A DNA stretch of 15,155 nucleotides, taken from UHGV virus genome UHGV-0151496; one strand, given 5' to 3'. A model generated the notes under the pieces. It was not told where the DNA came from. It worked only from the letters and a program-made list of their open reading frames with translations, and did no database searches. The DNA comes from a virus. The position numbers and the translations under genes are program-made. Of the stretch, positions 1,102-15,155 are shown one piece after another (position 1 is the first letter of the stretch; each line of letters opens with the position of its first letter).

Positions 1102-1689
1102 TCAGCGGGATAATTTTTGGATTGTTTTGGTTGAAACCCGATCGCCCTCCGAATCGCAGGAGCCATCAAGAGAGAGAGCCGGAGAAATCTGCCCAACCTC
1201 CGGCATCGTTTCATCTGTTGATAACCAGTAAGCGTATTTCTTAAATTTAGGATGTTTCGTAACCTTAAGTAAGGCCCCCTCTGTTACTTGCTTCCCTCTC
1301 GCCTCATAGTTAGTTACCGTTCCATAAGGTAGCCCAACACAATCCGCAAACTCCTGGCGGGTCATCCCTTCAGCTTCACGCATCAAGCGAAATTTTGCCC
1401 CAAGCCCAGATGCCACTTCAGACTCATCATCTACTAACGGAGTAGGCGAAACTTGCCCATTTTCAGCAGCCGAATGCCCAGTCATAAGCCAAAGCGCGTA
1501 TTTCTTGAACCTTTCAACCTGTAAAACTCGCTCAACCAACTCTGCTCTGGCAGGTTGATGCCCGGTTTCATATTTCTGAATAGTATTGAGCGGAATTCCT
1601 GTAATATCAGAGAATTGACGCCTACTTAACTCCTCCGCCTCTCTCATCATCATGAGTCTTTGCGAATAGTCTATTGACACGTTTCTCAT
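1102..1689 (-). CDS. Immunity repressor (C/CI-like) with two tandem XRE-type helix-turn-helix modules
   Basis: Same strand as int and divergent from cox, the P2 position of gene C. ORF track extends to a TTG at 1737; the first ATG is at 1687-1689 with AAGGAG upstream. Two internal repeats: REAEELSRRQFSDITGIPLNTIQKYETG...KYALWLMTG and REAEGMTRQEFADCVGLPYGTVTNYEARG...KYAYWLSTD. Confidence 0.75.
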   Translation of the reverse strand: MRNVSIDYSQRLMMMREAEELSRRQFSDITGIPLNTIQKYETGHQPARAELVERVLQVERFKKYALWLMTGHSAAENGQVSPTPLVDDESEVASGLGAKFRLMREAEGMTRQEFADCVGLPYGTVTNYEARGKQVTEGALLKVTKHPKFKKYAYWLSTDETMPEVGQISPALSLDGSCDSEGDRVSTKTIQKLSR

Positions 1690-1740
1690 ATGAGAAATAT
1701 ACTCCTTTCTAAATTGAGAAATGTTAAAACACCTCAATTG

Positions 1741-4839: not shown

Positions 4840-4962
4840 AACAGGTACACCATGCACACACAAAAAAACCGCTTGCCACAGCGCAATCAGTCAGGTTACA
4901 TTTCCGCTGCATCTCATAAAACGGATGCCGGGTTTCGCAGCCTGCTGATCAACAAAGCGCAC

Positions 4963-4983
4963 AACCGCGTCAGCGGTTTTTTT
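4963..4983 (+). terminator. Intrinsic-terminator-like hairpin with T tract
   Basis: aaccgc-gtca-gcggtt followed by ttttt: 6-bp stem, 4-nt loop, 7 consecutive T (4977-4983) on the + strand. Confidence 0.5.
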
Positions 4984-5039
4984 GTGCGTACCGCATTGCC
5001 GCACATTTTTTCGCATCAGAATTATGGTGGGGCGTACGG

Positions 5040-5069
5040 GGCCGACTTCGGTCGGGCCGGGTTTTCTTT
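5040..5069 (+). terminator. Second terminator-like hairpin (GC-rich stem, UUCG loop) with U-rich tail
   Basis: ggccgac-ttcg-gtcgggcc followed by gggttttcttt. About 7-bp stem with one bulge, then T-rich tract. Confidence 0.45.
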
Positions 5070-5165
5070 GTTGACCGGTACTGCGAACCTCGTACGTCTC
5101 GCCACCCACAGTTTCGCAGCTCTGGATGGTGAGTATTCAAAACTTACCAACAAAGAGGCCACACC

Positions 5166-5396
5166 ATGGCAAACCGCAAACAGCACCGCGCTATCGCGGA
5201 GCGTCGTCACATCCAGACTGAAATCAACCGCAGACTTTTCCGCGCATTCCGCGTCGCTAAAATCATGCACATCAACATGCTGCATGAGCGTAGCTGCGAA
5301 CTTTCAAACCTCTACTCATCCGCTGTTTTCAGCTATCTGGCGGATGATCTGCGCGAGCTTCAGCAGCTCATCCAGCAGCAAAACCAACTCCGTTAA
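5166..5396 (+). CDS. Hypothetical small basic protein
   Basis: 76-aa ORF with AAGAGG 7 nt upstream of the ATG; Arg-rich N-terminus and Gln-rich C-terminus (LQQLIQQQNQLR). First gene after the non-coding gap. Confidence 0.6.
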   Translation: MANRKQHRAIAERRHIQTEINRRLFRAFRVAKIMHINMLHERSCELSNLYSSAVFSYLADDLRELQQLIQQQNQLR

Positions 5397-5468
5397 TTCC
5401 TGTTCCGGGCCTTTCCCGCACCCTGCGGCGGGAGGCCTTCGCACATCTGTAGTAAAGAGAATTGCAGC

Positions 5469-5858
5469 ATGATTGACCGTCACGACTTCGTAAAATGGGT
5501 GCGCACACAGGACACCCGTCTGGCCCCAAAACTTCAGGCAATGTTTGATTTTTATCTCCGTGCCCGTGCCAGCCGGGCACGCACCACAAAACCGGAGAAC
5601 GCAGACACCCTTTATTTCACCGTGGACGACTGTTACCGCGTGGCCTTTACACCACAAGGTCTGGGCCTGTACACCCTGACACCACACGGCGACTCCCTGT
5701 TGGCGTATTACGACTCCCCGGCCTCCGTATTTGCGGCAATGCTGGCGCATCGTACCGCTGGCGGGTGTGCATCGCTGAGTGAATACACCGCTGAATTTAA
5801 CCGCCTTTCCGTCATCTTTTCGCAGGAGTGGCAGAGCGTGACGGGATACCAGCCATGA
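5469..5858 (+). CDS. Hypothetical protein immediately upstream of the replication gene
   Basis: 129-aa ORF; its TGA overlaps the gpA ATG (ATGA at 5855-5858). Confidence 0.55.
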   Translation: MIDRHDFVKWVRTQDTRLAPKLQAMFDFYLRARASRARTTKPENADTLYFTVDDCYRVAFTPQGLGLYTLTPHGDSLLAYYDSPASVFAAMLAHRTAGGCASLSEYTAEFNRLSVIFSQEWQSVTGYQP

Positions 5859-8695
5859 GTGAGTTTGCATGGAGCTGGAATGAACCGCAGCCAGCTATTG
5901 ATCCGGACGACTTCGCGAACTTCAGCCGGTTGCCAAAAACCGGACTGCAACGCGCCATTCGTTACTACCTTGAGGCAGACAAAAAGGCCCAGGAAGAACA
6001 GGAAGCGAAGGGAGAAGCCTTTTTCGCACAATCCGCCATGGGTAAAAAACTCATGGCATCCCTTGAGGAAGCCGGGCAACACAAAAAACTGATAAAAAAC
6101 ATCATCAGTAAGCGCCAGGAAATAAAGCAAGACCCGGTGGCCCGTGCATTTGTCACACTAAAGGCGCTTCCCGTTTATCTGCGAGAACCCCTGAGCCGCC
6201 ACCTCTCGTTCCTGCGCAAGAAGCAGGAAGCCGATCGTCAGAAAGGCAAAAAGAGCTGGCAGGCCGAACGCTACGCGCGCGGAAACCTGCGCAAAATATT
6301 CGAACGTCTGAAGCGCACCGACAGCCGCTGGCTGACACAGGGGTATCGCTCCCTTGCCGGACGCGAACGCCTGGACGATTTGCTTTACCTGCCGCAGCTC
6401 AACAAACACCAGATACAGACGCTGGCCACCATGACGGCGGCGATGTTCAGCAGCACCTTCGAAAAACTCTGCGATGGCTTTGGCGCGACCGATGGTGAGC
6501 TGACCATGGATGTAACGCTGAAGGCGTATCAGATGCTGGCCCGCATGGCGTTACACCTGCACACCATGCCGCCGCATTATGACGCACTGACAACAGACAA
6601 AGACCGGAAGAACGAACCGGAAACGGAGCTGCTGCCAGGCGCAATCCTTCGCCTGACCTGTGCGGAATGGTGGAAACGCAAACTGTGGCTTTTACGTTGC
6701 GAGTGGAGAGAAGAACAACTCCGCGCCGCCTGTCTGGTTTCCAGAAAAACATCGCCCTATCTGAGCCAGGACGCGTTAAGCGAGTTTCGCGCACAACGCG
6801 AGAAAACACGCGATTTCCTGAAAAGTTTCATGCTGGAAAACAAATACGGGTTCACGTTTTATCTCGAGACAGTGTATTACGCGGGAGTAAGTAACCCGGT
6901 TCACCGTAAGGCAGAAATGATGGCCACCATGAAGGGACTGGAACTTCTGGCCGAAGCCCGTGGCGACAGAGCGGTGTTTCTGACTGTCACCTGCCCGTCA
7001 AAATACCACGCAACAACGGAGAACGGTCATCCGAACCCCAAATGGAACGGGGCCACCATGCGCGACTCCAGCGATTACCTGGTTAACACGTTTTTTGCGG
7101 CGGTCCGCAAAAAACTGAACCGCGACGGTCTGCGCTGGTATGGCATCCGCACGGTGGAGCCTCATCATGACGGCACGGTGCACTGGCACATGATGGTTTT
7201 TGCGCATCCTGACGAGATTGAAACCATCGTGTCCCACACCCGCGATATTGCCATTCAGGAAGATCGTCACGAGCTGGGTGATGATATTACCCCACGCTTT
7301 AAGGCGGAGTACGTCGACGGCTCAAAAGGCACACCGACCAGCTACATCGCCACCTACATCGGGAAAAACCTGGACAGCCGTGCCGTGGATGGCATCGACC
7401 CGAAAACGGGCAAGCCACGCGTTGACCACGAAACCGGAAAATCAATGGCCGAGAGCGTGGAACGCGCCATCGGCTGGGCGCGCCTTCACCGTGTCCGCCA
7501 GTTCCAGTTCTTTGGTATCCCCTCCCGTCAGGTGTGGCGTGAACTCCGCCGCCTTGCCAGCCAGATGGCACGCAACCCGGAAGGCCCGCAACGGCTGAAG
7601 GATGACGCAATGGATGCGGTACTCGCTGCCGCTGATGCCGGATGTTTTGCCACCTACATAGAGAAACAGGGCGGCGTACTTGTTCCACGCAAAGACTACC
7701 TGATTCGCACCGCCTACGACCTCGCAGAAGAGCTGAACGATTACGGCGAACAGAGCGCACAGATTTATGGGATCTGGTCACCACTCATCGGGGAATCCTC
7801 CCGTGTGTGCACGCACCCGGATAACTGGAAGCTGGTAAGACGTAAACCGGAAGCGGAAGACAACACCCGCGAAAATGGTTTTGACCTTCAGGGCGGCCTT
7901 GCCGCCCCTTGGACTCGTGGCAATAACTGTCCCCGTGTACAGGAAACGGACAACAACGGGACAGAACAGCCGGAAGAACGGCCAGCACCGTGGCCGCAGC
8001 TTCCTGACGGCGTTGAAGTGAATGAATGGATCCGCTCACTGAAACGGCACGAACGCCGGGCGCTGATGCGTTCGCTGCGTGACAAACAGGCAAAAAACAG
8101 CAGCGATGAAATGCAGAACTGGACACAGAGCCGCAAACAGCCGCGGCCTTTACCTGATAACCACGAGTTACTCGCTAAAGAATGGCGGGAGTCTGCTGAA
8201 TCTCTCGGCCTGCATATCGGTGAACAGCAGATGCAGCACCTGTTACGGGGCGGCAGTCTGTACGTTGACGGCAGCATCATTTCACCGCAGGGATTTGAAA
8301 TTGTACGCAAACCGGATACCCGCCCGGACGGCCTAATCACGCAACTCTGGCAACGCCTGAGCCGTAATCACGGCATAAGCAGCACGGAGATCCGCCATAA
8401 CCCGGTCGCCAGCTATCTGAAACAGCTCGAGGCATCAGACCCTGAAGCCGCCGCACGCCTGGCATCCACACTTCAGCAAGACCAGAACACCATGAAAACA
8501 CCCGTTACCGTGCTTTCTGACATGCTGCGCGCCATCCGCGACGCAGAGCACGCACAGAGAATCAGTGAAACCACTGAACGCGCCCGCCGCAAAGCAGACC
8601 TACTGCGGGGTAGCCTGACCAGTGGAAACAAAAAACAGACAAAAACGGGATTCACAAATCCCGTAAATGAGCAAAAAACGCGCCGCGATATATGA
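5855..8695 (+). CDS. A: Rolling-circle replication initiation endonuclease, P2 gpA family
   Basis: ORF track start 5828 is GTG; the ATG at 5855 overlaps the upstream stop. Contains an HUH-type motif (GTVHWHMMVFAHPDE) and a paired-tyrosine motif (SYIATYIGKNL) typical of P2 A-type Rep proteins. Position matches gene A in the P2 map. Confidence 0.88.
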   Translation: MSEFAWSWNEPQPAIDPDDFANFSRLPKTGLQRAIRYYLEADKKAQEEQEAKGEAFFAQSAMGKKLMASLEEAGQHKKLIKNIISKRQEIKQDPVARAFVTLKALPVYLREPLSRHLSFLRKKQEADRQKGKKSWQAERYARGNLRKIFERLKRTDSRWLTQGYRSLAGRERLDDLLYLPQLNKHQIQTLATMTAAMFSSTFEKLCDGFGATDGELTMDVTLKAYQMLARMALHLHTMPPHYDALTTDKDRKNEPETELLPGAILRLTCAEWWKRKLWLLRCEWREEQLRAACLVSRKTSPYLSQDALSEFRAQREKTRDFLKSFMLENKYGFTFYLETVYYAGVSNPVHRKAEMMATMKGLELLAEARGDRAVFLTVTCPSKYHATTENGHPNPKWNGATMRDSSDYLVNTFFAAVRKKLNRDGLRWYGIRTVEPHHDGTVHWHMMVFAHPDEIETIVSHTRDIAIQEDRHELGDDITPRFKAEYVDGSKGTPTSYIATYIGKNLDSRAVDGIDPKTGKPRVDHETGKSMAESVERAIGWARLHRVRQFQFFGIPSRQVWRELRRLASQMARNPEGPQRLKDDAMDAVLAAADAGCFATYIEKQGGVLVPRKDYLIRTAYDLAEELNDYGEQSAQIYGIWSPLIGESSRVCTHPDNWKLVRRKPEAEDNTRENGFDLQGGLAAPWTRGNNCPRVQETDNNGTEQPEERPAPWPQLPDGVEVNEWIRSLKRHERRALMRSLRDKQAKNSSDEMQNWTQSRKQPRPLPDNHELLAKEWRESAESLGLHIGEQQMQHLLRGGSLYVDGSIISPQGFEIVRKPDTRPDGLITQLWQRLSRNHGISSTEIRHNPVASYLKQLEASDPEAAARLASTLQQDQNTMKTPVTVLSDMLRAIRDAEHAQRISETTERARRKADLLRGSLTSGNKKQTKTGFTNPVNEQKTRRDI
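8646..8663. repeat. 18-bp perfect-arm palindrome cgggattcacaaatcccg (copy 1), inside the 3' end of the gpA ORF
   Basis: Read directly: 7-bp arms CGGGATT/AATCCCG around a 4-nt centre, followed by taaa. Near-identical copy 73 bp downstream. Confidence 0.6.
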
Positions 8696-8771: not shown

Positions 8772-9731
8772 ATGAAAATTTGTATCGACGACGGCTCCAC
8801 CAACATCAAGCTGGCATGGACTGAGAACGGCGAACGCCGCAACGCCATCAGCCCGAACAGCTTCAAGTCGGAATGGTCTGCGCCGTTCGGCGGCTCGCAG
8901 CCCGCGAACTACATGCTTGATGGCGTGCGCTATGGTTTTGATCCGGTCAGCGATCGCTTTGTCCGGACGACCGACACGCAATACCAGTACAGCGATGTGA
9001 ATGTCATTGCCATTCATCATGCGCTGGTCAAATCAGGTATTACGCCACAGGAAGTGGATGTGGTTGTCACCCTGCCACTGAGCGAGTATTTCGACACAAA
9101 CGCACAGCCGGATATGACCAACATCAACCGCAAAAAAGCGAACGTCATGCGCCCGGTGGAGTACCAGAACGGTGAGGCATTCACTATCCGTAACGTGCGG
9201 GTTATGCCTGAATCCATTCCGGCAGGCTTTAAGGCACTGGCTGACATGAGTCCGTTTGAATCCCTGCTGATTGTGGATTTGGGCGGTACCACGCTGGATG
9301 TGGCAAAGGTTCAGGGGCAACTGGCAGGTATCAGCCAGGTATTTTGCGATCCACACGTAGGCGTTTCACTGATGACCGATGCCGTGCTGTCGGTGATGGC
9401 CACCAACGGTATGCGTACCAGCCACCACATCGCCAGTACCATTATCGAACATCGCCACGATGAAGCCTGGCTGCGCCAGCACATCCACAATGACGCGCAT
9501 TACGCCAGCCTGATGGCGGTTATTCGTGAAAAGGAAGAAACACTGAAACAACGCGTGATCCGCGCACTGGCGGGCTTTTCGGGATACGGTCGGGTGATGA
9601 TTGTCGGTGGAGGGGCGGAGATTGTGGCTCCGGCGGTACATGACGCTTACGGCCTCAACGCAAACATTCACACAACACCGGAGCCACAGTTTGCCCTGGT
9701 TAATGGACTCCATGACATGAACAGGGAGTGA
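8772..9731 (+). CDS. parM: Actin-like plasmid segregation ATPase ParM/StbA
   Basis: N-terminus MKICIDDGSTNIKLAW, SPNSFKSEW, YSDVNVIAIHHAL, VMPESIPAGF, LIVDLGGTTLDV, VMIVGGGAEI and C-terminal ALVNGL closely resemble plasmid R1/R100 ParM (StbA) as I recall it. AAGGAA precedes the ATG. Confidence 0.9.
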   Translation: MKICIDDGSTNIKLAWTENGERRNAISPNSFKSEWSAPFGGSQPANYMLDGVRYGFDPVSDRFVRTTDTQYQYSDVNVIAIHHALVKSGITPQEVDVVVTLPLSEYFDTNAQPDMTNINRKKANVMRPVEYQNGEAFTIRNVRVMPESIPAGFKALADMSPFESLLIVDLGGTTLDVAKVQGQLAGISQVFCDPHVGVSLMTDAVLSVMATNGMRTSHHIASTIIEHRHDEAWLRQHIHNDAHYASLMAVIREKEETLKQRVIRALAGFSGYGRVMIVGGGAEIVAPAVHDAYGLNANIHTTPEPQFALVNGLHDMNRE

Positions 9732-9735
9732 ACCA

Positions 9736-10047
9736 ATGACAACATCAACCAGGCGGATAAGTTTCTATCTGAAGCCAGCCGCAGTCAAGAACGAAGGTGA
9801 AGCATGCACATGGCTGGACAGCCTTACACCAGAAGCCCGCAAAAGCGGCCAACGCGTGGCTTTTCTGGCCGGGCTGGCGCTTCTGAAGACGAATCCGGCA
9901 GAGGCTTACCGGCTGGCTGCATGGGCTGACGATGAGGCGTTATCCGTGACACAAACCAGGACAGAACGCCCCGTGTCACAGCCAGTACCAACCGCACAGA
10001 TAACCAGTCAGATGGCCGGAAATATCCGGGCGCTATTTCCTGAGTAA
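9736..10047 (+). CDS. parR: ParR/StbB-like centromere-binding adaptor
   Basis: 103 aa directly downstream of parM (4-nt gap, GGGAG upstream). N-terminal RRISFYLKP...LDSLTPEARKSGQRVAFLAGLAL resembles the ribbon-helix-helix region of R1 ParR. Confidence 0.7.
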   Translation: MTTSTRRISFYLKPAAVKNEGEACTWLDSLTPEARKSGQRVAFLAGLALLKTNPAEAYRLAAWADDEALSVTQTRTERPVSQPVPTAQITSQMAGNIRALFPE

Positions 10048-10053
10048 GCAGAG

Positions 10054-10074
10054 CCAGGGCGGAAACCGCCCTGG
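10054..10074. terminator. Perfect 9-bp stem / 3-nt loop hairpin after parR (no T tract)
   Basis: ccagggcgg-aaa-ccgccctgg, 7 nt after the parR stop. Marks the boundary between the GC-typical core and the AT-rich island. Confidence 0.4.
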
Positions 10075-10099
10075 ATGTAATCAGTAGAGAGTGTGAACC

Positions 10100-10228
10100 C
10101 ACACCACATCACGCTCCATGAAATTTGCATAATTTAACTATGATTTTTGCAACTCTCCATTCATAATGTTAGTAATAATTAACCAATCTAAACCCATAAG
10201 AGCCACCATTGTTAAATTCAGGTGACGT
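10100..10228 (+). promoter_or_regulatory. AT-rich upstream region of the cargo operon; putative promoter
   Basis: TTGCAA at 10147-10152 and TAAT-rich -10 candidates (cataat 10162-10167, taataa 10173-10178); AGGTGA before the ATG at 10229. Spacing is not canonical, so the exact promoter is unresolved. Confidence 0.25.
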
Positions 10229-11374
10229 ATGAACATTCAACAGCGTATAGCAGAACGCTTGGTTCAGGCCAGAAACGACGCGGGAATGAGTGCAAGCGCC
10301 GTCGCAGATGCGATCGGTGTTGTTCGTCAAACCTACAGTAAGTTTGAGCAGGCGCTAGGCGTCCCAAGCGTTACCCAACTCATCATGCTCTGCAAGATTT
10401 TCGATAAGCCTATCGGGTATTTTTATGAGCAAGATGATGGCGAGTTCCGTTTTGCAATGCGAGCAGATAGTCCGGATTTGTTGGATGCTAAACTTCGCAA
10501 TGAGTTGATTGAAAAGTTAAAAAATATCAATGCAATTGAGGAAGCTGCTGATGCTAATTTGCCAGAAGATCTTCCTAACTCAATGCCTATTTTTACCGCC
10601 AAAGCAGAAGATTTGCGAAGAGTCGAAGATAAGGCTATGGAAGAACGTTTCCGTCTTGGTATAGGAAACGCTACTTGCGTTGGTGACATTGTAGCCATTT
10701 TGGAAGCATCGGATATTCGAGTAATCCCGTTCAATCGCGAAGAAACCGATAAAGGGATGGTATTCGGATTTTCTGCGTTTTCGAACAAATACGGTACCGC
10801 GATTTATGTAAATGTTCACGACAGCATTTCAATAGAACGTCAAATCTTCAGTATTTGCCATGAATATGCTCATCTTATCTTCCACCGTGATGAGTATGAT
10901 GGCCCTGCTAAAAGCTATAAAACTAATGGCAAAGCAATTTCACCGGAAGAAAAAGTTGCTAATCACTTTGCTGCTTGTTTTTTGGTACCAGAAAGTGCAT
11001 TGCGAAAACAATTCGTCATGCAAGGTGGTGGATGGGCGTATGAGGAAACCGTCCTTAGACTAAAAAGCATTTTCAGAGTATCAGCCACTTGCATCATCGA
11101 TCGTCTTAGTAAATGTAATTTAATTAATCAACAAAACACTAGATACCTATGGGCAACCGCCAATCGTAAAGGTTGGAAGAGACACGAGCCAAATCCCATT
11201 AGGGAAGCACTAAATTATAAAGGTCGCCTAACCGTCTTATCGCGTAAAGCATGGGAAGCCGGTTCCGCGTCGGAAACCTTCATATCTGAACTTTTAGAAT
11301 TAGACAGAAAAGCTCTCAGCAATCTTCTGGATGAATGGTACGACGAACAGGAGGCCGGAGAGGATGCCGTTTGA
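10229..11374 (+). CDS. Fused XRE-family HTH + ImmA/IrrE (COG2856/DUF955-type) zinc metallopeptidase
   Basis: N-terminal HTH (SASAVADAIGVVRQTYSKFEQALGVPSVTQL) and central HExxH motif (SICHEYAHLIFH) in the context typical of ImmA/IrrE peptidases. 381 aa, AT-rich codon usage unlike neighbouring phage genes. Confidence 0.8.
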   Translation: MNIQQRIAERLVQARNDAGMSASAVADAIGVVRQTYSKFEQALGVPSVTQLIMLCKIFDKPIGYFYEQDDGEFRFAMRADSPDLLDAKLRNELIEKLKNINAIEEAADANLPEDLPNSMPIFTAKAEDLRRVEDKAMEERFRLGIGNATCVGDIVAILEASDIRVIPFNREETDKGMVFGFSAFSNKYGTAIYVNVHDSISIERQIFSICHEYAHLIFHRDEYDGPAKSYKTNGKAISPEEKVANHFAACFLVPESALRKQFVMQGGGWAYEETVLRLKSIFRVSATCIIDRLSKCNLINQQNTRYLWATANRKGWKRHEPNPIREALNYKGRLTVLSRKAWEAGSASETFISELLELDRKALSNLLDEWYDEQEAGEDAV

Positions 11375-11882
11375 ATGCCCCAGATGTGTTATCGATACGA
11401 ATGTACTGTCTGATTTTTACGAAGGTAAATGCTTAGATCTTATCTGGCAAATTTACCCGGGTGGTGTGTGGATTGACCCCTATGTCTGCGAGGAACTAAA
11501 AGCTAAATACAATCTTGATGTTCAGGAACAGCTTACACGCCTGCAACTTCCATACAATTTCACCAATGATTACGAACCTGAACATTTTATTGAAATGGCT
11601 GAGATAAAAAATCGCAGGAGAGCATTGAAGTATGCGGACATAAGCTGCGTTGTTAACGCGAGAATACATGATGCAACATGTCTTTCGGCGGATAATGCGG
11701 TTTATAAAACGTGTGCGGAACGCGGTGTAAAAGCCGCCCGCCACGGAGGGCTACTCCAAGAGGCTGTGCGCAGGAGACTTATCCACAAACATCAAGCCTT
11801 AATGCATTTCCAATTTTTCCTAGATCGTGGGTTAACGATGAAATCTTCTGTTCGAGAACAGATTCTTGCCAGTTTCGAATGA
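11364..11882 (+). CDS. PIN-domain-like nuclease (VapC-like fold), candidate toxin/effector
   Basis: ATG at 11364 with AGGAGG 9 nt upstream (ORF track's 11331 start lacks an SD). VIDTNVLSDF near the N-terminus (PIN strand-1 Asp), acidic residue in VCEELK, then DISCVVNARIHDATCLSADNAVY resembling the PIN D..IAA.A / T.D motifs. Start lies 10 nt upstream of the peptidase stop. Confidence 0.6.
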   Translation: MPFECPRCVIDTNVLSDFYEGKCLDLIWQIYPGGVWIDPYVCEELKAKYNLDVQEQLTRLQLPYNFTNDYEPEHFIEMAEIKNRRRALKYADISCVVNARIHDATCLSADNAVYKTCAERGVKAARHGGLLQEAVRRRLIHKHQALMHFQFFLDRGLTMKSSVREQILASFE

Positions 11883-11915
11883 ATCCAAATCTCTCTTGCC
11901 ATATTGGGTTATATT

Positions 11916-11941
11916 GAGCCGCAATAGCGGCTCTTTTTTTT
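11916..11941 (+). terminator. Rho-independent terminator of the cargo operon
   Basis: gagccgc-aata-gcggctc followed by 8 T (11934-11941), 34 nt after the PIN stop. Confidence 0.8.
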
Positions 11942-11956
11942 GTTTATTTATAACAA

Positions 11957-11992
11957 GTGCGCAATGCACAATAGTGCGCAAATTTGCACAAT
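11957..11992. repeat. Tandem direct repeat GTGCGCAA(T)n TGCACAAT x2
   Basis: gtgcgcaatgcacaata / gtgcgcaaatttgcacaat read directly. TGCACAA recurs at 12056-12062 beside the palindrome aaaaacgcgttttt (12064-12077). Confidence 0.5.
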
Positions 11993-12313
11993 TTTTTTGA
12001 GCGACTTTTTGCCCTTCTGGCCCGCGTGGCGGCTGGATCCGTCAAGGATCCGTGCATGCACAAAAAAACGCGTTTTTGTTGCGCGCAGGTGCCGGGGGAA
12101 CAGCCCGCAATTTGGGGTCTGAAAGCATCCTCAGAAATCGCCAGAAATGCTGCTGATTGTGCCCCTGACGCGATGTTTTATTGGTTGTGTGGTGAAGTAT
12201 GGGCTGATGCATCACATGCCTGTGATGCACTTTGATGCGACGTGTGCTGACAGGTTATTCAACCTGGTAGATCCCTGAGATGCCTGGTGCGTGACACACC
12301 GGAGCTGGTGAGT

Positions 12314-12363: not shown

Positions 12364-13413
12364 TCAGGATGTGGGCGGGGTATCCAGCAGTGCGTAAGGG
12401 TTAAAGCGGATCACCTCCTCGCCCAGCCAGTCATTAACGTGCTTCATCGCCTCCATCACCGGCATCAGTTCGTTGATCGCAAACACTCTGGCCGCCTTCT
12501 CCACATCACCAAAAGAACCCTGCCCGCTGGGCATTGCGCCCATCAGTTGTGGTGGTACACGGTGAGCGGCCAGCACATCATCACGGGAGGCCGCCTTGAC
12601 GTTCATGAACTCATCCCGGGCGGTGATCTGCTGGAATGGCAGGATTTGCACACCGTCCTTCCCGCCGTTCGGTGCCTGGAGTAGCAGGTTCTTGAATGCC
12701 CCACCGCCTCTTGCGCCCTGCAACGCTCTTTCGAGAGCCTGCATACTTTCGCGATCAACCTGTGCTGCCCCCACGTAAATGATGCAGCCTGCATGTGAAC
12801 CGTTGTCATAGTAGAGTTTGCGGAAGCGATCTGCCGAGTGCGACAGACTGGCAGACAACAGGCCACCGAGATATTCCGGCATTCCGTACATCTCCTGGTT
12901 GATGTCGGGGTTCAGCACATGGCAGACGCGCCCCTGACGGAACTCGTGATCCTGCTCCCCCGTCTGCACAAACCAGTACACATCCGGTTCAACACCACGA
13001 CGGACGTATTTTGCCAGGGCATGGCGCAGTTCCAGTTTTCCGCCCAGCCTGTTGGTGCGCAGTTCAAGAAACGCATTCCCGAAGACAAACCAGTCCAGCG
13101 CAAAGGCGGAGAACGCCTGCCGGGACAACAGCCGGTGCGGAATGAAGCAGCCCAGTATGGCATTCCGCTTGAAGTACAGCGCCGACTGGTGCCACGAGGT
13201 CTGCCGGGATGCCCGCGCCAGTCCGTACCAGTCAACGGGCGTTTCGTAGTATCTGCCGTTACTCAGACAGTATGCGTTATCCAGCAGGTCGAGTGCGTGC
13301 GCATCGTAAGGGCCGTCGAACGAGAAGGCGCTTAACGACGGCTGGCGGCGCAGTGCCTCTGCCAGCGCCACGCCGTCATCGCGGCGCGAATATTTTCGTT
13401 TTTGTTTTTTCAT
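12364..13413 (-). CDS. Q: Phage portal (capsid portal vertex) protein, P2 gpQ-like
   Basis: 349 aa, immediately downstream of and overlapping (ATGA) the terminase ATPase gene on the minus strand; size and position match P2 gene Q. Family assignment by position and general resemblance, not by a search. Confidence 0.8.
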   Translation of the reverse strand: MKKQKRKYSRRDDGVALAEALRRQPSLSAFSFDGPYDAHALDLLDNAYCLSNGRYYETPVDWYGLARASRQTSWHQSALYFKRNAILGCFIPHRLLSRQAFSAFALDWFVFGNAFLELRTNRLGGKLELRHALAKYVRRGVEPDVYWFVQTGEQDHEFRQGRVCHVLNPDINQEMYGMPEYLGGLLSASLSHSADRFRKLYYDNGSHAGCIIYVGAAQVDRESMQALERALQGARGGGAFKNLLLQAPNGGKDGVQILPFQQITARDEFMNVKAASRDDVLAAHRVPPQLMGAMPSGQGSFGDVEKAARVFAINELMPVMEAMKHVNDWLGEEVIRFNPYALLDTPPTS

Positions 13414-15155
13414 CAGAACTCAATCACCCGCATTCCTGTAGCACCGTCCTCCTCACCCAGCGGCTCGTTAATGACGGCAAGCATGGTTGCCCACGCGAGG
13501 TCGCCGTGGTTCACGCCGCGTGTGCGGTCTGTTTCATAAGTTATTGCCCCACCCGCCGTTTTTGCCTTGCGCACAGCGTTGAATGCCCTGACCAGCTCAC
13601 GTTCGCCCCGGTCATACTCCCAGCGCCCCGCACGAATAATCTGCAACATCTTCAGCACAAGCGCGCGTTTGGATGCCAGTGTGAACGTGTACGGCACGGC
13701 GGCAGGCCAGAACCGCCGCACTATCTGGTACACTGCCTCACCGTTACCGCCGGTCACGTCGATACCAATGTGCTGGACGTTGTATTTGTGCGTGAACTGC
13801 TCAATCACACGGGCCTGCTCTTCAAATTCCAGCCCCTGCACCTGTAACGTCTCCACCGTGCGGAATTTGCCGCCCCTGACAGCAGGCGGAACAACAACAG
13901 ACAGCGCCCCGCTGTCGCCGTTACCGCTGCTGCCGTTAGCGTCGTAGCCAATCCACACCGGACGATTACCCACCGGACGTGCTGCGAACGGTTTCCAGTC
14001 ATTCCACTCATCATAGCCGTCCACACCACAGCCCAGCAGGGCATTAAGGTCGAAGGCGGATTCGCCGTCGCTGACAAACTCGCACATGTAGAGATTGCGG
14101 AACTCATCCGGCGAGTTCATGTTGCGGATTTTGTCGATACTGGTGAGTGACCAGCCCAGGTCCACCGCATCCTGAATCGTCACGATTTGTCGCCACGCGC
14201 TGTCGGGGCACAGCCCCCCACTCTTCAGAGCATGATGGGACACATCAATCTCCCGGCGCTCACTGCGTGGTCGCCCGGCATTCCACCGCGCGCCGTTCCA
14301 GAACTGAAACGCCTCGTGCATCTCCGATGACGGCGTGGAAAAGTAGGTCTGCGTCAGGCCATTCAGCGTGGCCATCGCGCCTGCGACCTTGCGCAGCGTG
14401 ATGAAGTTCGACACCCAGAAAAATTCGTCAAAATACAGATTGCCCGTGTATGACTGTGCACTCGCGGCGGATGTCCCCAGAAAATGCAGTTCCGCGCCGT
14501 TAGAAAGCACGATTTTGTCACCGCCTTTCAGCTCGACGTCCACCGCCTGTGCCGCCTTCTGAATCACGCCTTTAAACTGAAAAGCCTGACGGCGCGAGGC
14601 TGACAAAAAAATCTGGTTTCGCTGGTACGGATATTTCACGCGCTCATCCAGCGCCCGCAGCAGTGCCTCCTGCGCAAAATACCAGGTCGCGCCTATCTGT
14701 CGGGATTTCACAATGATGCGAATATCAACACCGGCACGACGGCAGACGTCCAGTGCCTCATACCAGCGTCGCTGATGCTCTGCCAGTTGACCGGTGATGT
14801 GTTCGCGCAGTGCGGCAACCTGCGATTCGGAAAAATGGTTTTTCAGCTTTCGTTTTCGCGGGCTTTTTTCCGCGCCGCCCCTGTTGTCATTCAGTTTTGC
14901 GAGCTGGCGTGTCAGCAGGTCGATTTCCTTAAAATCACCGCCGCTCTTTTCAGCTTTTGAGGTCAGCTGAACCAGTCGCGCATCAATCGACTGCGTGACC
15001 CGCTCCACGGGCGGCGTCTCATCCCATCCGTCGCGCTTTTTCCACGAATAAATCGTGTTCTGACTGATACCCATCAGCCGCGATATTTCAGCGGGCGGAT
15101 AACCCTGCCAGTAAAGCTGTTTTGCCCGCAGCCTGATGAATGCGTCCTGAATCAT
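13413..15155 (-). CDS. P: Terminase large (ATPase) subunit, P2 gpP-like
   Basis: 580 aa. N-terminal HTH-like region (QGYPPAEISRLMGISQNTIYSWKKRDGWDE) typical of gpP-type terminases; Walker-A-like region (IVKSRQIGATWY). Start codon is the last 3 nt of the window, so an upstream start cannot be excluded. Confidence 0.85.
   Translation of the reverse strand: MIQDAFIRLRAKQLYWQGYPPAEISRLMGISQNTIYSWKKRDGWDETPPVERVTQSIDARLVQLTSKAEKSGGDFKEIDLLTRQLAKLNDNRGGAEKSPRKRKLKNHFSESQVAALREHITGQLAEHQRRWYEALDVCRRAGVDIRIIVKSRQIGATWYFAQEALLRALDERVKYPYQRNQIFLSASRRQAFQFKGVIQKAAQAVDVELKGGDKIVLSNGAELHFLGTSAASAQSYTGNLYFDEFFWVSNFITLRKVAGAMATLNGLTQTYFSTPSSEMHEAFQFWNGARWNAGRPRSERREIDVSHHALKSGGLCPDSAWRQIVTIQDAVDLGWSLTSIDKIRNMNSPDEFRNLYMCEFVSDGESAFDLNALLGCGVDGYDEWNDWKPFAARPVGNRPVWIGYDANGSSGNGDSGALSVVVPPAVRGGKFRTVETLQVQGLEFEEQARVIEQFTHKYNVQHIGIDVTGGNGEAVYQIVRRFWPAAVPYTFTLASKRALVLKMLQIIRAGRWEYDRGERELVRAFNAVRKAKTAGGAITYETDRTRGVNHGDLAWATMLAVINEPLGEEDGATGMRVIEF

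What the first reader, a model, noticed from the sequence alone, without database searches (positions are those of the whole stretch)
10229..11882. Candidate toxin / abortive-infection module: HTH-ImmA/IrrE metallopeptidase fused regulator plus PIN nuclease in the P2 gene-A-to-portal cargo slot
Two overlapping genes (11364-11374) form an operon with its own upstream region and a strong terminator. Gene 1 fuses an XRE HTH to an HExxH ImmA/IrrE-type peptidase (HEYAH); gene 2 has a PIN-like acidic-residue layout (VIDTNVL...D..CVVNA...SADNA). The operon sits where P2 carries tin/old, a known variable anti-phage cargo position in P2-like phages. ImmA/IrrE peptidases are known to cleave partner repressors in response to a signal; pairing one with a PIN nuclease suggests a protease-gated RNase, i.e. 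an unusual type II TA or defence system. I do not recognise this exact pairing as a named system.
Basis: partly seen in the sequence, partly recalled or inferred. Interest (0 to 1): 0.88.

Follow-up and report, generated by a model that had tools for sequence, protein, structure and literature searches.

The report
Rosmer-like PIN toxin–antitoxin cassette in prophage
This is a two-gene cassette (a DNA-binding zinc-protease "antitoxin" plus a PIN-type nuclease "toxin") carried as cargo in a P2-like E. coli prophage; the gene pairing is real and conserved, but it belongs to an already described family (Xre-COG2856/ImmA + PIN, now called Rosmer-like), so it is an untested new member, not a new kind of system.

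Summary
Gene 1 (10229-11374, 381 aa) has an Xre HTH and an ImmA/IrrE M78 peptidase with an intact HEYAH…E241 site. Gene 2 (11364-11882, 172 aa) overlaps it by 11 nt. It has a confident PIN fold with a conserved acidic tetrad (D11, E43/E44, D92, D110). A strong terminator follows at 11916-11941.

The 1.9-kb, low-GC cassette lies between gpA/ParM/ParR and the portal gene of a P2-like prophage. That is the known tin/old defence hotspot.

The pair co-diverges: all 7 distinct related loci inspected carry both genes, down to 31%/23% identity. The loci include contexts beside restriction-modification genes. A GTTA-N7-8-TAAC inverted repeat recurs upstream and is a candidate operator.

The novelty claim fails. 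Gene 1 matches PADLOC RmrA, the Rosmer antitoxin (2.8e-35). Fused Xre-COG2856 genes in operons with PIN toxins were described in 2009. The HTH-DUF955 + COG2405 PIN pairing was described in 2017 and again in 2023. This exact locus (WP_001603071) is listed, untested, in the 2022 P2-hotspot catalogue.

Most likely it is a Rosmer-like toxin–antitoxin and abortive-infection module. Toxicity, trigger, protease substrate and anti-phage activity are all inferred. Interest is modest.

The parts
10054..10074 (+). Perfect 9-bp hairpin (CCAGGGCGG-AAA-CCGCCCTGG) just after the ParR-like stop codon. It marks the left edge of the cargo cassette and may insulate it from ParMR transcription.
   Evidence: I3. 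Homology with other P2-like prophages ends at about 10047 (query 1-1348).
10167..10183 (+). Candidate operator for the HTH domain: inverted repeat TGTTA-N7-TTAAC. A further half-site, TGTTAA, lies at 10210-10215 next to the RBS. Binding is inferred, not shown.
   Evidence: GTTA-N6-10-TAAC occurs within 150 nt upstream of gene 1 in 4 of 8 loci scanned (4 of the 7 distinct ones). Elsewhere there are 4 matches in 98 kb. This is the only match in the whole window.
10220..10225 (+). Shine-Dalgarno-like AGGTGA, 3 nt before the ATG of gene 1.
   Evidence: Read directly from the sequence.
10229..11374 (+). Gene 1: 381-aa RmrA-like protein (predicted antitoxin, repressor and protease).
   Evidence: PADLOC RmrA 2.8e-35, aa 4-321. 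PHROG 2439 2.2e-45. Pfam HTH_3 + Peptidase_M78. AF2 pLDDT 86. Foldseek hits IrrE/PprI and CapP plus Xre HTHs.
10229..10426 (+). Xre-type helix-turn-helix domain of gene 1 (aa 1-66).
   Evidence: Pfam HTH_3 aa 13-65. Helices H3-18, 22-29, 33-40 and 48-58. Foldseek hits P22 c2, SinR and C.BclI.
10445..10474 (+). Conserved linker motif F-R-F-A-M-R-A-D-S-P (aa 73-82). It lies in or next to the lowest-confidence segment between the HTH and the peptidase, and R78 is invariant. It is a candidate cleavage or pseudosubstrate site; this is speculative.
   Evidence: 32 sequences, down to 25% identity. pLDDT <50 at aa 70-75.
10604..11125 (+). ImmA/IrrE (M78) zinc-peptidase domain (about aa 126-299). HEYAH is at nt 10859-10873. 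The predicted third ligand, E241, is at nt 10949-10951 within the E-K-x-A-N-x-F-A motif.
   Evidence: H211, E212 and E241 are invariant; H215 is nearly invariant. Pfam PF06114. IrrE 3dti/8slm and CapP 7t5t by Foldseek.
11126..11371 (+). C-terminal helical domain (aa 300-381) with invariant E320 and nearly invariant P321. It ends in a disordered D-A-V tail. It is the inferred toxin-binding or sensor region.
   Evidence: pLDDT >90 for aa 300-370, 43 for the tail. Conservation.
11357..11363 (+). Shine-Dalgarno GGAGAGG for gene 2, lying inside the end of gene 1. This suggests translational coupling.
   Evidence: Sequence. Genes overlap by 4-17 nt in 6 of the 7 related loci scanned, as they do (11 nt) in the window.
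11364..11882 (+). Gene 2: 172-aa PIN-like nuclease (predicted toxin/effector). It has a PIN core (aa 1-126) plus a three-helix C-terminal extension. The acidic tetrad is D11, E43/E44, D92 and D110.
11916..11941 (+). Intrinsic terminator (GAGCCGC-AATA-GCGGCTC followed by T8) ending the two-gene operon.

Best explanation
A Rosmer-like (Xre-COG2856/ImmA + toxin) two-gene toxin-antitoxin module whose effector is a COG2405-type PIN nuclease. It is carried as a horizontally acquired cassette in the gpA-to-portal defence hotspot of a P2-like E. coli prophage.

Proposed working (all steps inferred):
1. In the resting lysogen, gene 1 protein binds the TGTTA-N7-TTAAC operator through its HTH and autoregulates the operon.
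2. The body of gene 1 protein (probably the conserved C-terminal helical domain) holds the co-translated PIN protein inactive.
3. A cue from infection or DNA damage activates the M78 peptidase, or exposes its substrate. Known cues in related proteases are ssDNA for CapP, RecA or RapI for ImmA, and zinc/redox for IrrE.
4. The peptidase then cuts the fusion protein itself (candidate site: the invariant hydrophobic-Arg-Ala-Asp linker motif) or a partner.
5. This both derepresses the operon and frees the PIN nuclease.
6. The nuclease cleaves RNA (tRNA, rRNA or mRNA, as VapC enzymes do) and stops growth before the competing phage completes its cycle.

Shown here: domain identities, intact catalytic motifs, operon architecture, co-inheritance of the two genes, cargo position.
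For: - Gene 1 matches PADLOC RmrA at 2.8e-35 and 14 further RmrA models. The IrrE/CapP-like fold and the invariant HExxH+E are shown.
- The genes overlap by 11 nt, with an internal SD and a single terminator.
- The pair is present in all 7 distinct related loci. Identities fall in parallel: 74/71, 65/65, 42/38, 43/38, 41/38, 35/30 and 31/23 % for gene 1/gene 2.
- Defence-type surroundings: the P2 A-Q hotspot; an MmeI-type RM and a ParS/MbcA antitoxin-type gene (L002); type I hsdM/hsdS and YafO (L005).
- Cassette GC is 40-45% against 52-60% in the backbone. The slot holds other cargo in about 1400 E. coli genomes.
- A candidate operator is enriched upstream.
- Literature: RosmerTA systems defend against phage and the rmrA deletion could not be obtained. 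A phage-borne RmrTA is toxic, neutralised and defensive. ImmA-PIN pairings have been noted.
Against: - No experiment on this locus or on any HTH-M78 + PIN pair was found in the library searched.
- PADLOC RmrT models do not match gene 2. It gives only weak PDC-S70 hits (1.8e-4).
- Roles are not fixed in this family: in PD-lambda-2 the Xre-peptidase protein alone was the toxic component.
- The protease substrate, trigger and PIN target are unknown.
- No consensus sigma-70 promoter was found on the + strand upstream.
- The PIN Pfam score is only just above threshold, and my own scan did not recover DUF3368 for gene 2.
Confidence: 0.6

Rival explanations
1. It is an addiction (post-segregational killing) module that stabilises the prophage, or a plasmid-like form of it, and has no role in phage exclusion. 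The toxin-antitoxin pair would work alongside the adjacent ParM/ParR partition system.
For: It lies directly downstream of a ParM/ParR-like partition pair. Rousset 2022 suggests such P2-likes may be maintained as plasmids. Another E. coli genome has a RelE/ParE TA in the same slot (H36). The cassette is also found as a stand-alone chromosomal insertion with no obvious defence neighbours (L009, L010).
Against: There is no homologue of gene 2 in 72,556 plasmids by tblastn. Only 27-32 of about 1430 genomes with this ParMR backbone carry the pair, so it is not part of the partition function. Relatives lie next to RM systems. The family (Rosmer) has demonstrated anti-phage members. Stabilisation and defence are not mutually exclusive.
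Confidence: 0.2
2. The roles are reversed or shared. The HTH-M78 protease is the toxic effector, cleaving a host or phage protein. The PIN-like protein is its neutraliser, sensor or co-effector.
For: In PD-lambda-2 the Xre-peptidase component alone was toxic and was rescued by the HigB-like partner. COG2856 was originally listed as the 'toxin' of Xre-COG2856 pairs. The peptidase domain is the most conserved part of gene 1.
Against: The PIN catalytic tetrad is strictly conserved, which argues for an active nuclease, not a mere binding partner. In RosmerTA, RipAB and the Kita phage system the peptidase protein is the antitoxin. Gene order here, with the PIN gene second and overlapping, is the commonest TA order, antitoxin first.
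Confidence: 0.12
3. It is a prophage regulatory switch. The M78 protease acts as an ImmA-like anti-repressor that cleaves the prophage immunity repressor (or another Xre repressor) to control induction. The PIN gene would be a passenger.
For: ImmA/ImmR, IrrE/DdrO and CapP/CapH all work by cleaving an HTH repressor. The window encodes an unusual 211-aa double-HTH repressor at 1102-1737.
Against: The pair lies 8.5 kb from the immunity region. It occurs with the same PIN partner outside prophages (L002, L005, L009, L010). It is absent from most otherwise similar P2-like prophages. It carries its own HTH.
Confidence: 0.05

Closest known systems
RosmerTA (RmrT/RmrA; Millman et al. 2022) and Rosmer-like TAs in the NetFlax network (Ernits et al. 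2023)
   Same: The antitoxin architecture is the same: Xre HTH plus ImmA/IrrE Zn-peptidase of about 380 aa. Gene 1 matches RmrA models almost end to end. It is a two-gene operon on mobile elements. NetFlax explicitly notes PIN-like partners of the ImmA node.
   Different: The validated RmrT toxins are unrelated to PIN: one is of unknown function and the Kita phage toxin depolarises the membrane. No PADLOC RmrT model matches gene 2. In NetFlax 58% of ImmA/Rosmer pairs are toxin-first, whereas here the antitoxin is first.
Predicted 'three-component' Xre-COG2856(DUF955) + PIN/COG2405 TA (Makarova et al. 2009; Matelska et al. 2017)
   Same: This is exactly the arrangement seen here: a fused HTH-Zn-peptidase gene immediately upstream of a PIN-like gene, frequent in prophages. 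The best structural match of gene 2 is 2mdt, the COG2405 structure.
   Different: That system is only a bioinformatic prediction. The present enterobacterial PIN subfamily is small (about 30 clusters at 90% identity; 9 representatives at 50%). It scores marginally with Pfam PIN and not with PF11848.13.
VapBC type II toxin-antitoxin systems
   Same: PIN-fold toxin with four conserved acidic residues. Overlapping genes, antitoxin first, and an antitoxin with a DNA-binding domain.
   Different: VapB antitoxins are small (70-100 aa) RHH/AbrB/Phd/HTH proteins degraded by host proteases. Here the antitoxin is 381 aa and carries its own metalloprotease. The PIN protein has an extra three-helix C-terminal extension.
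ImmR/ImmA (ICEBs1), DdrO/IrrE (Deinococcus), CapH/CapP (CBASS regulation)
   Same: M78 fold with HExxH + Glu; Foldseek matches IrrE/PprI and CapP. The logic is a signal-activated protease inactivating an Xre repressor.
   Different: In those systems the repressor and protease are separate proteins and control transcription of other genes. Here they are fused and tied to a nuclease partner. IrrE's GAF-like C-terminal domain is replaced by a helical domain.
PD-lambda-2 (Vassallo et al. 2022) and RipAB/Spr1630-Spr1629 (S. pneumoniae, 2025)
   Same: Experimentally studied relatives with an Xre-peptidase component. NCBIfam 'spr1629 family repressor/antitoxin' gives 86 bits. PD-lambda-2 is an E. coli defence system.
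   Different: The score is far below the spr1629 family cut-off of 335 bits. The partners are HigB plus a P4-antitoxin-like protein (PD-lambda-2) or a DnaN-targeting toxin (RipA), not PIN. PD-lambda-2 has three genes and reversed toxicity.
P2 old/tin and other cargo of the P2 gpA-gpQ hotspot (Rousset et al. 2022; Vassallo et al. 2022)
   Same: Same insertion slot next to the portal gene and cos site. This locus is listed in Table S5A of Rousset 2022.
   Different: The proteins are unrelated. This arrangement was catalogued with the PIN gene as 'hypothetical' and is not among the systems described as tested.

Membership tests
RosmerTA (as implemented in PADLOC-DB v2) | RmrA: Xre HTH + Zn-peptidase (M78) protein matching an RmrA model | tested here: met
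   15 RmrA models hit. The best is PDLC03947 at 2.8e-35, covering aa 4-321 against profile positions 9-315 of 383.
RosmerTA (as implemented in PADLOC-DB v2) | Adjacent RmrT toxin matching an RmrT model | tested here: not met
   No RmrT model hits gene 2 at E<=1; only PDC-S70 hits at 1.8e-4 and 5.7e-4. The literature treats RmrT as diverse, unrelated toxins, so this lowers 'would be called Rosmer by PADLOC' but not 'works like Rosmer'.
RosmerTA | Toxin toxic alone, neutralised by RmrA; operon protects against phage | not testable with these tools
   Requires expression and plaque assays.
Xre-COG2856/DUF955 + PIN-like predicted TA (Makarova 2009; Matelska 2017) | Single protein fusing an Xre HTH and a COG2856/DUF955 domain with HExxH | tested here: met
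   Pfam HTH_3 + Peptidase_M78. HEYAH plus E241 are conserved in 32 homologues.
Xre-COG2856/DUF955 + PIN-like predicted TA (Makarova 2009; Matelska 2017) | PIN-like gene on the same strand, within 100 nt, conserved across genomes | tested here: met
   11-nt overlap. The pair is present in all 7 distinct related loci.
COG2405 / DUF3368 PIN-like family | Sequence match to PF11848 / COG2405 | tested here: inconclusive
   Precomputed annotations give PF11848.14 for most homologues and for the partners in L002, L005, L007, L008 and L010. My own hmmscan (PF11848.13) finds nothing for gene 2 and 16.7 bits (cut-off 27.3) for the L005 partner.
COG2405 / DUF3368 PIN-like family | Structural similarity to the family's solved member (PDB 2mdt, SSO1118, as listed by Matelska 2017) | tested here: met
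PIN-domain nucleases (VapC-like) | PIN fold | tested here: met
PIN-domain nucleases (VapC-like) | Four conserved acidic residues at the canonical positions | tested here: met
   D11 follows beta1, E43/E44 lie in the helix after beta2, D92 is at the N-terminus of helix 90-101, and D110 follows beta4. Equivalence to VapC D7/E42/D98/E119 is by topology only; hhalign to VapC was uninformative and model coordinates could not be inspected.
Canonical VapBC | Small VapB antitoxin (RHH/AbrB/Phd/short HTH) without an enzymatic domain | tested here: not met
   The upstream partner is 381 aa with an M78 peptidase.
ImmR/ImmA-type two-protein regulators | Separate HTH repressor as the protease substrate | tested here: not met
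   HTH and peptidase are in one polypeptide. No separate small Xre gene lies in the cassette 10048-11965.
spr1629 (RipB) family repressor/antitoxin (NCBIfam NF052239) | Score above the equivalog cut-off (335 bits) | tested here: not met
   86 bits, 2.7e-24: same architecture but a different subfamily.
P2 gpA-gpQ defence hotspot cargo | Located between the replication gene A and portal gene Q of a P2-like prophage, variable between strains | tested here: met
   Definition. The locus is listed in Table S5A.

The most novel reading that the evidence does not exclude
The antitoxin is a self-destructing sensor. On a phage cue, the M78 domain cuts its own polypeptide at the invariant hydrophobic-Arg-Ala-Asp motif in the flexible HTH-peptidase linker. 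From recalled literature, not checked here, IrrE cuts DdrO at a Leu|Arg bond and ImmA cuts ImmR at Phe|Met. One cut would then both lift operator repression and release an active PIN RNase. The conserved C-terminal D-A-[V/I/L/F/A] tail could serve as a ClpX-type degron, which would explain the ClpX/ClpP dependence seen in other Rosmer-family systems. If so, this E. coli cassette would give the first mechanistic model for how Rosmer-type systems sense infection.
Probability: 0.15. Interest if true: 0.6.

Novelty: new member of a known kind. Interest (0 to 1): 0.3.

Why it matters
Rosmer-type (HTH-Zn-peptidase antitoxin) systems are widespread and some protect against phage. In the literature I could search, their trigger, the protease's substrate and the way the toxin is released are still unknown. 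I found no tested PIN-effector member. This cassette is compact (1.9 kb), native to E. coli and sits in a well-studied prophage hotspot. Its catalytic residues are clear, and it has a candidate operator and a candidate cleavage motif. That makes it a convenient test case. It does not reveal a new principle. It also shows a gap in current annotation: PADLOC v2 recognises the antitoxin but has no RmrT (Rosmer toxin) model that matches the PIN partner.

Tried and rejected
- Megablast and tblastn of the operon or gene 2 against 50,697 phage records found nothing. Gene 1 gives only 20-25% identical hits in phages.
- tblastn of gene 2 against 72,556 plasmids found nothing. This weakens a plasmid-addiction origin.
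- A profile search of PDB sequences with the gene 2 alignment found nothing at E<=1. Fold comparison was needed.
Catalytic-residue equivalence therefore rests on secondary-structure topology.
- Re-searching the protein database with an alignment added only one more distant homologue. The exhaustive representative search gave only 9 hits, so the PIN subfamily is narrow.
- The consensus promoter scan found no + strand sigma-70 promoter upstream. By eye, TTGCAA (10147-10152)-N17-TAGTAA is the best candidate, and I do not rely on it.
- The afdb50 fold library was unavailable.
- Literature searches for a mechanistic Rosmer study or a tested HTH-M78 + PIN pair found none.
- DefensePredictor's PIN systems DS-3 and DS-5 have different architectures.
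- I considered a prophage anti-repressor role and rejected it as the main reading because the pair also occurs outside prophages.
Full report
**1. What is there**

The window is the left part of a P2-like E. coli prophage.
- It encodes an integrase (1-1020, −), a 211-aa double-HTH repressor (1102-1737, −) and Cox (1802-2089).
- It then encodes replication protein gpA (5828-8695), ParM (8772-9731) and a ParR-like Plasmid_stab_B protein (9736-10047).
- The two genes of the finding follow. After them come the portal (12364-13413, −) and the large terminase (13413-15155, −).
- A 99.6% identical copy in E. coli C7 has the same order, next to pdxB.

The finding's coordinates and motifs are correct.
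- Gene 1 is 10229-11374 (381 aa). Gene 2's conserved start is ATG 11364 (172 aa, MPFECPRC…), which gives an 11-nt overlap with an internal GGAGAGG ribosome-binding site.
- A 7-bp, G+C-rich stem at 11916-11933 followed by T8 terminates the operon.
- A perfect 9-bp hairpin (10054-10074) follows the ParR-like stop codon.

**2. The two proteins**

Gene 1:
- It has Pfam HTH_3 (3.1e-8) and Peptidase_M78 (1.5e-11).
- In 32 homologues, down to 25% identity, H211, E212 and E241 are invariant. H215 and the A-N-x-F-A…P motif are nearly so. The zinc site is therefore intact.
- The AlphaFold model (pLDDT 86) has an N-terminal Xre domain and a low-confidence linker (aa 70-75 below 50). It also has an α/β peptidase domain and a confident C-terminal helical domain.
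- Foldseek matches IrrE/PprI (3dti, 8slm) and CapP (7t5t) for the peptidase part. It matches P22 c2, SinR and C.BclI for the HTH.

Gene 2:
- It scores 24.9 bits on Pfam PIN, against a cut-off of 23.6.
- It folds with pLDDT 94.1.
- Foldseek gives VapC toxins and protein-only RNase P.
- D92 and D110 are invariant, and D11 and E43 are ≥90% conserved, in 26 homologues.
- These residues lie after β1, in the helix after β2, at the start of helix 90-101 and after β4. That is the VapC layout.
- The equivalence is topological. A profile alignment to VapC failed, and I could not inspect model coordinates.

**3. Is the pairing real?**

Yes. I looked at the surroundings of seven distinct relatives of either protein.
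- Each has an HTH-M78 gene followed by a homologue of gene 2.
- Two apparent exceptions were resolved by translation. In Enterobacter cloacae (L009) the PIN start had been mis-called. In a Mu-like phage contig (L004) the partner is a truncated 139-aa homologue.
- Identities of the two proteins to the window's fall together, from 74/71% to 31/23%.
- The genes overlap by 4-17 nt in six of the seven related loci, as they do (11 nt) in the window.
- This indicates a stably co-inherited, probably translationally coupled pair.

An inverted repeat, GTTA-N7-8-TAAC, lies within 150 nt upstream of gene 1 in four of the eight loci scanned (window included). Elsewhere there are four matches in 98 kb. It occurs once in the window, at 10167-10183. 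I take this as a candidate operator for the HTH domain; that is an inference.

**4. Context**

- The cassette (about 10048-11965) has 40-45% G+C, against 52-60% in the phage backbone.
- Its flanks (ParMR on one side, the portal-proximal region on the other) occur in about 1430 of 5426 complete E. coli genomes, with different genes in between. Examples are DUF3800, Ea22-like, DUF4760 and a RelE/ParE TA.
- The pair itself is in only 27-32 genomes.
- This is the gpA-gpQ hotspot that carries old and tin in P2. It was shown to be rich in anti-phage systems.
- Distant copies of the pair sit beside an MmeI-type restriction-modification gene and a ParS/MbcA antitoxin-type gene (L002). Others sit beside type I hsdM/hsdS and a YafO toxin (L005).
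- Other copies are isolated chromosomal insertions (L009, L010).
- No copy of gene 2 was found on plasmids or in isolated phage genomes.

**5. Comparison with what is known**

- Gene 1 matches 15 PADLOC RmrA models (best 2.8e-35, nearly full length). RmrA is the antitoxin of RosmerTA.
- Millman et al. defined RosmerTA as a Zn-peptidase antitoxin plus a toxin. They could not delete rmrA, and they cited Matelska 2017 for the configuration.
- Makarova et al. (2009) reported that fused COG2856-Xre genes often share an operon with PIN or RelE toxins, especially in prophages. They proposed a protease-controlled, three-component TA.
- Matelska et al. (2017) listed COG2405, DUF4411, PIN_14, PIN_20 and PIN_26 as the PIN-like families co-transcribed with HTH and DUF955. 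They gave a Geobacillus HTH-DUF955 → COG2405 example.
- NetFlax (2023) places an ImmA/Rosmer antitoxin hub in its TA network, notes its PIN-like partners, and validated a phage-borne RmrTA as toxic and defensive.
- Rousset et al. [quoted passage not shown] It is not among the systems they describe testing.

The pairing and the 'protease-gated nuclease' idea are therefore not new.

Three things remain open:
- I found no experimental work on any HTH-M78 + PIN pair.
- I found no mechanistic account of how Rosmer systems are triggered.
- PADLOC's RmrT models do not cover gene 2.

**6. Mechanism**

The best-supported reading (confidence about 0.6) is a Rosmer-like toxin-antitoxin and abortive-infection module.
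- Gene 1 represses the operon and holds the PIN nuclease inactive.
- A cue activates proteolysis and releases the nuclease.

Only the parts list is shown; each functional step is inferred.

Cautions:
- In PD-λ-2 the Xre-peptidase protein was itself the toxic component.
- RipB needs ClpX to counter its toxin.
- Another prophage TA cited by Millman et al. as an instance of the Zn-peptidase-antitoxin configuration makes clpP essential.
- Host proteases may therefore be part of the circuit.

Rival readings are a pure addiction module beside ParMR (0.2), reversed roles (0.12) and a prophage anti-repressor (0.05).

Two features may be worth testing:
- The motif [hydrophobic]-R78-A-D-x-P lies in the flexible linker, and its Arg is invariant in all 32 sequences.
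- The C-terminal D-A-[V/I/L/F/A] tail is conserved. Its codons overlap the conserved MPF start of gene 2 (GATGCCGTTTGA).

These could be a self-cleavage site and a degron. That is speculation.

**7. Verdict**

- This is a new, untested member of a known family, specifically the PIN/COG2405 branch of Rosmer-like Xre-COG2856 systems. It sits in a known hotspot and is already catalogued.
- Interest is 0.3. It is useful as a tractable E. coli model for an unresolved mechanism, but it would not surprise a specialist.

Noticed in passing
window 1102-1737 (-): The gene in the immunity-repressor position encodes a 211-aa protein with two Xre-type HTH regions (aa 25-74 and about 119-158). The otherwise similar prophage in E. 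coli C7 has a 106-aa HTH protein there, so the immunity regions are mosaic.
   Followed up: partly
window 8772-10047 (+): A ParM / ParR-like (StbA + Plasmid_stab_B) partition pair lies inside the P2 hotspot. Its backbone is in about 1430 of 5426 E. coli genomes, with many different cargo genes between ParR and the portal. One of these is a RelE/ParE TA (H36).
   Followed up: partly
window 11363-11374: The overlap GATGCCGTTTGA encodes both the conserved D-A-V-stop tail of gene 1 and the conserved M-P-F start of gene 2. Conservation of either could be driven by the other. The D-A-[V/I/L/F/A] C-terminus resembles a ClpX-type degron (speculative).
   Followed up: partly
window 10445-10474: The conserved FRFAMRADSP motif (R78 invariant in 32 homologues) lies in or next to the least confident segment of the gene 1 model, between the HTH and the peptidase.
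   Followed up: partly
window 11955-12000: Just after the terminator there are repeated GTGCGCAA / TGCACAAT motifs and a small palindrome (GTGCGCAAATTTGCAC). Homology with other P2-like prophages resumes at about 11965, so this is portal/cos-proximal backbone, not cargo.
   Followed up: no
gene 2 and homologues (window 11364-11882; L002, L005, L007, L008): Annotation discrepancy: precomputed tables give PF11848.14 (DUF3368) for these proteins. My hmmscan with PF11848.13 gives no hit for gene 2 and only 16.7 bits (cut-off 27.3) for the L005 partner, and that hit is on the C-terminal helical extension (aa 128-171).
   Followed up: yes
L009 9136-9654: In the Enterobacter cloacae assembly the PIN gene was called 146 aa long with a 68-nt gap after gene 1. 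The real ORF is 172 aa (MPFSCPRC…) and overlaps gene 1 by 11 nt, so it was a start-codon mis-call.
   Followed up: yes
L004 6166-6585: In a Mu-like phage contig the PIN partner is only 139 aa and lacks the C-terminal helices. It does not overlap gene 1. It may be a decaying or minimal variant.
   Followed up: partly
L008 1-4 and 4001-5571: A second HTH-M78 gene (370 aa) ends about 4 kb upstream of the HTH-M78/PIN pair on the same contig. A YhcG/DUF1016 nuclease-like gene and a NikA-like gene lie nearby, so Rosmer-like genes cluster on this mobile element.
   Followed up: no
window 4852-5858 (+): Two ORFs (206 aa and 129 aa) just upstream of gpA have no Pfam match at E<=0.001.
   Followed up: no
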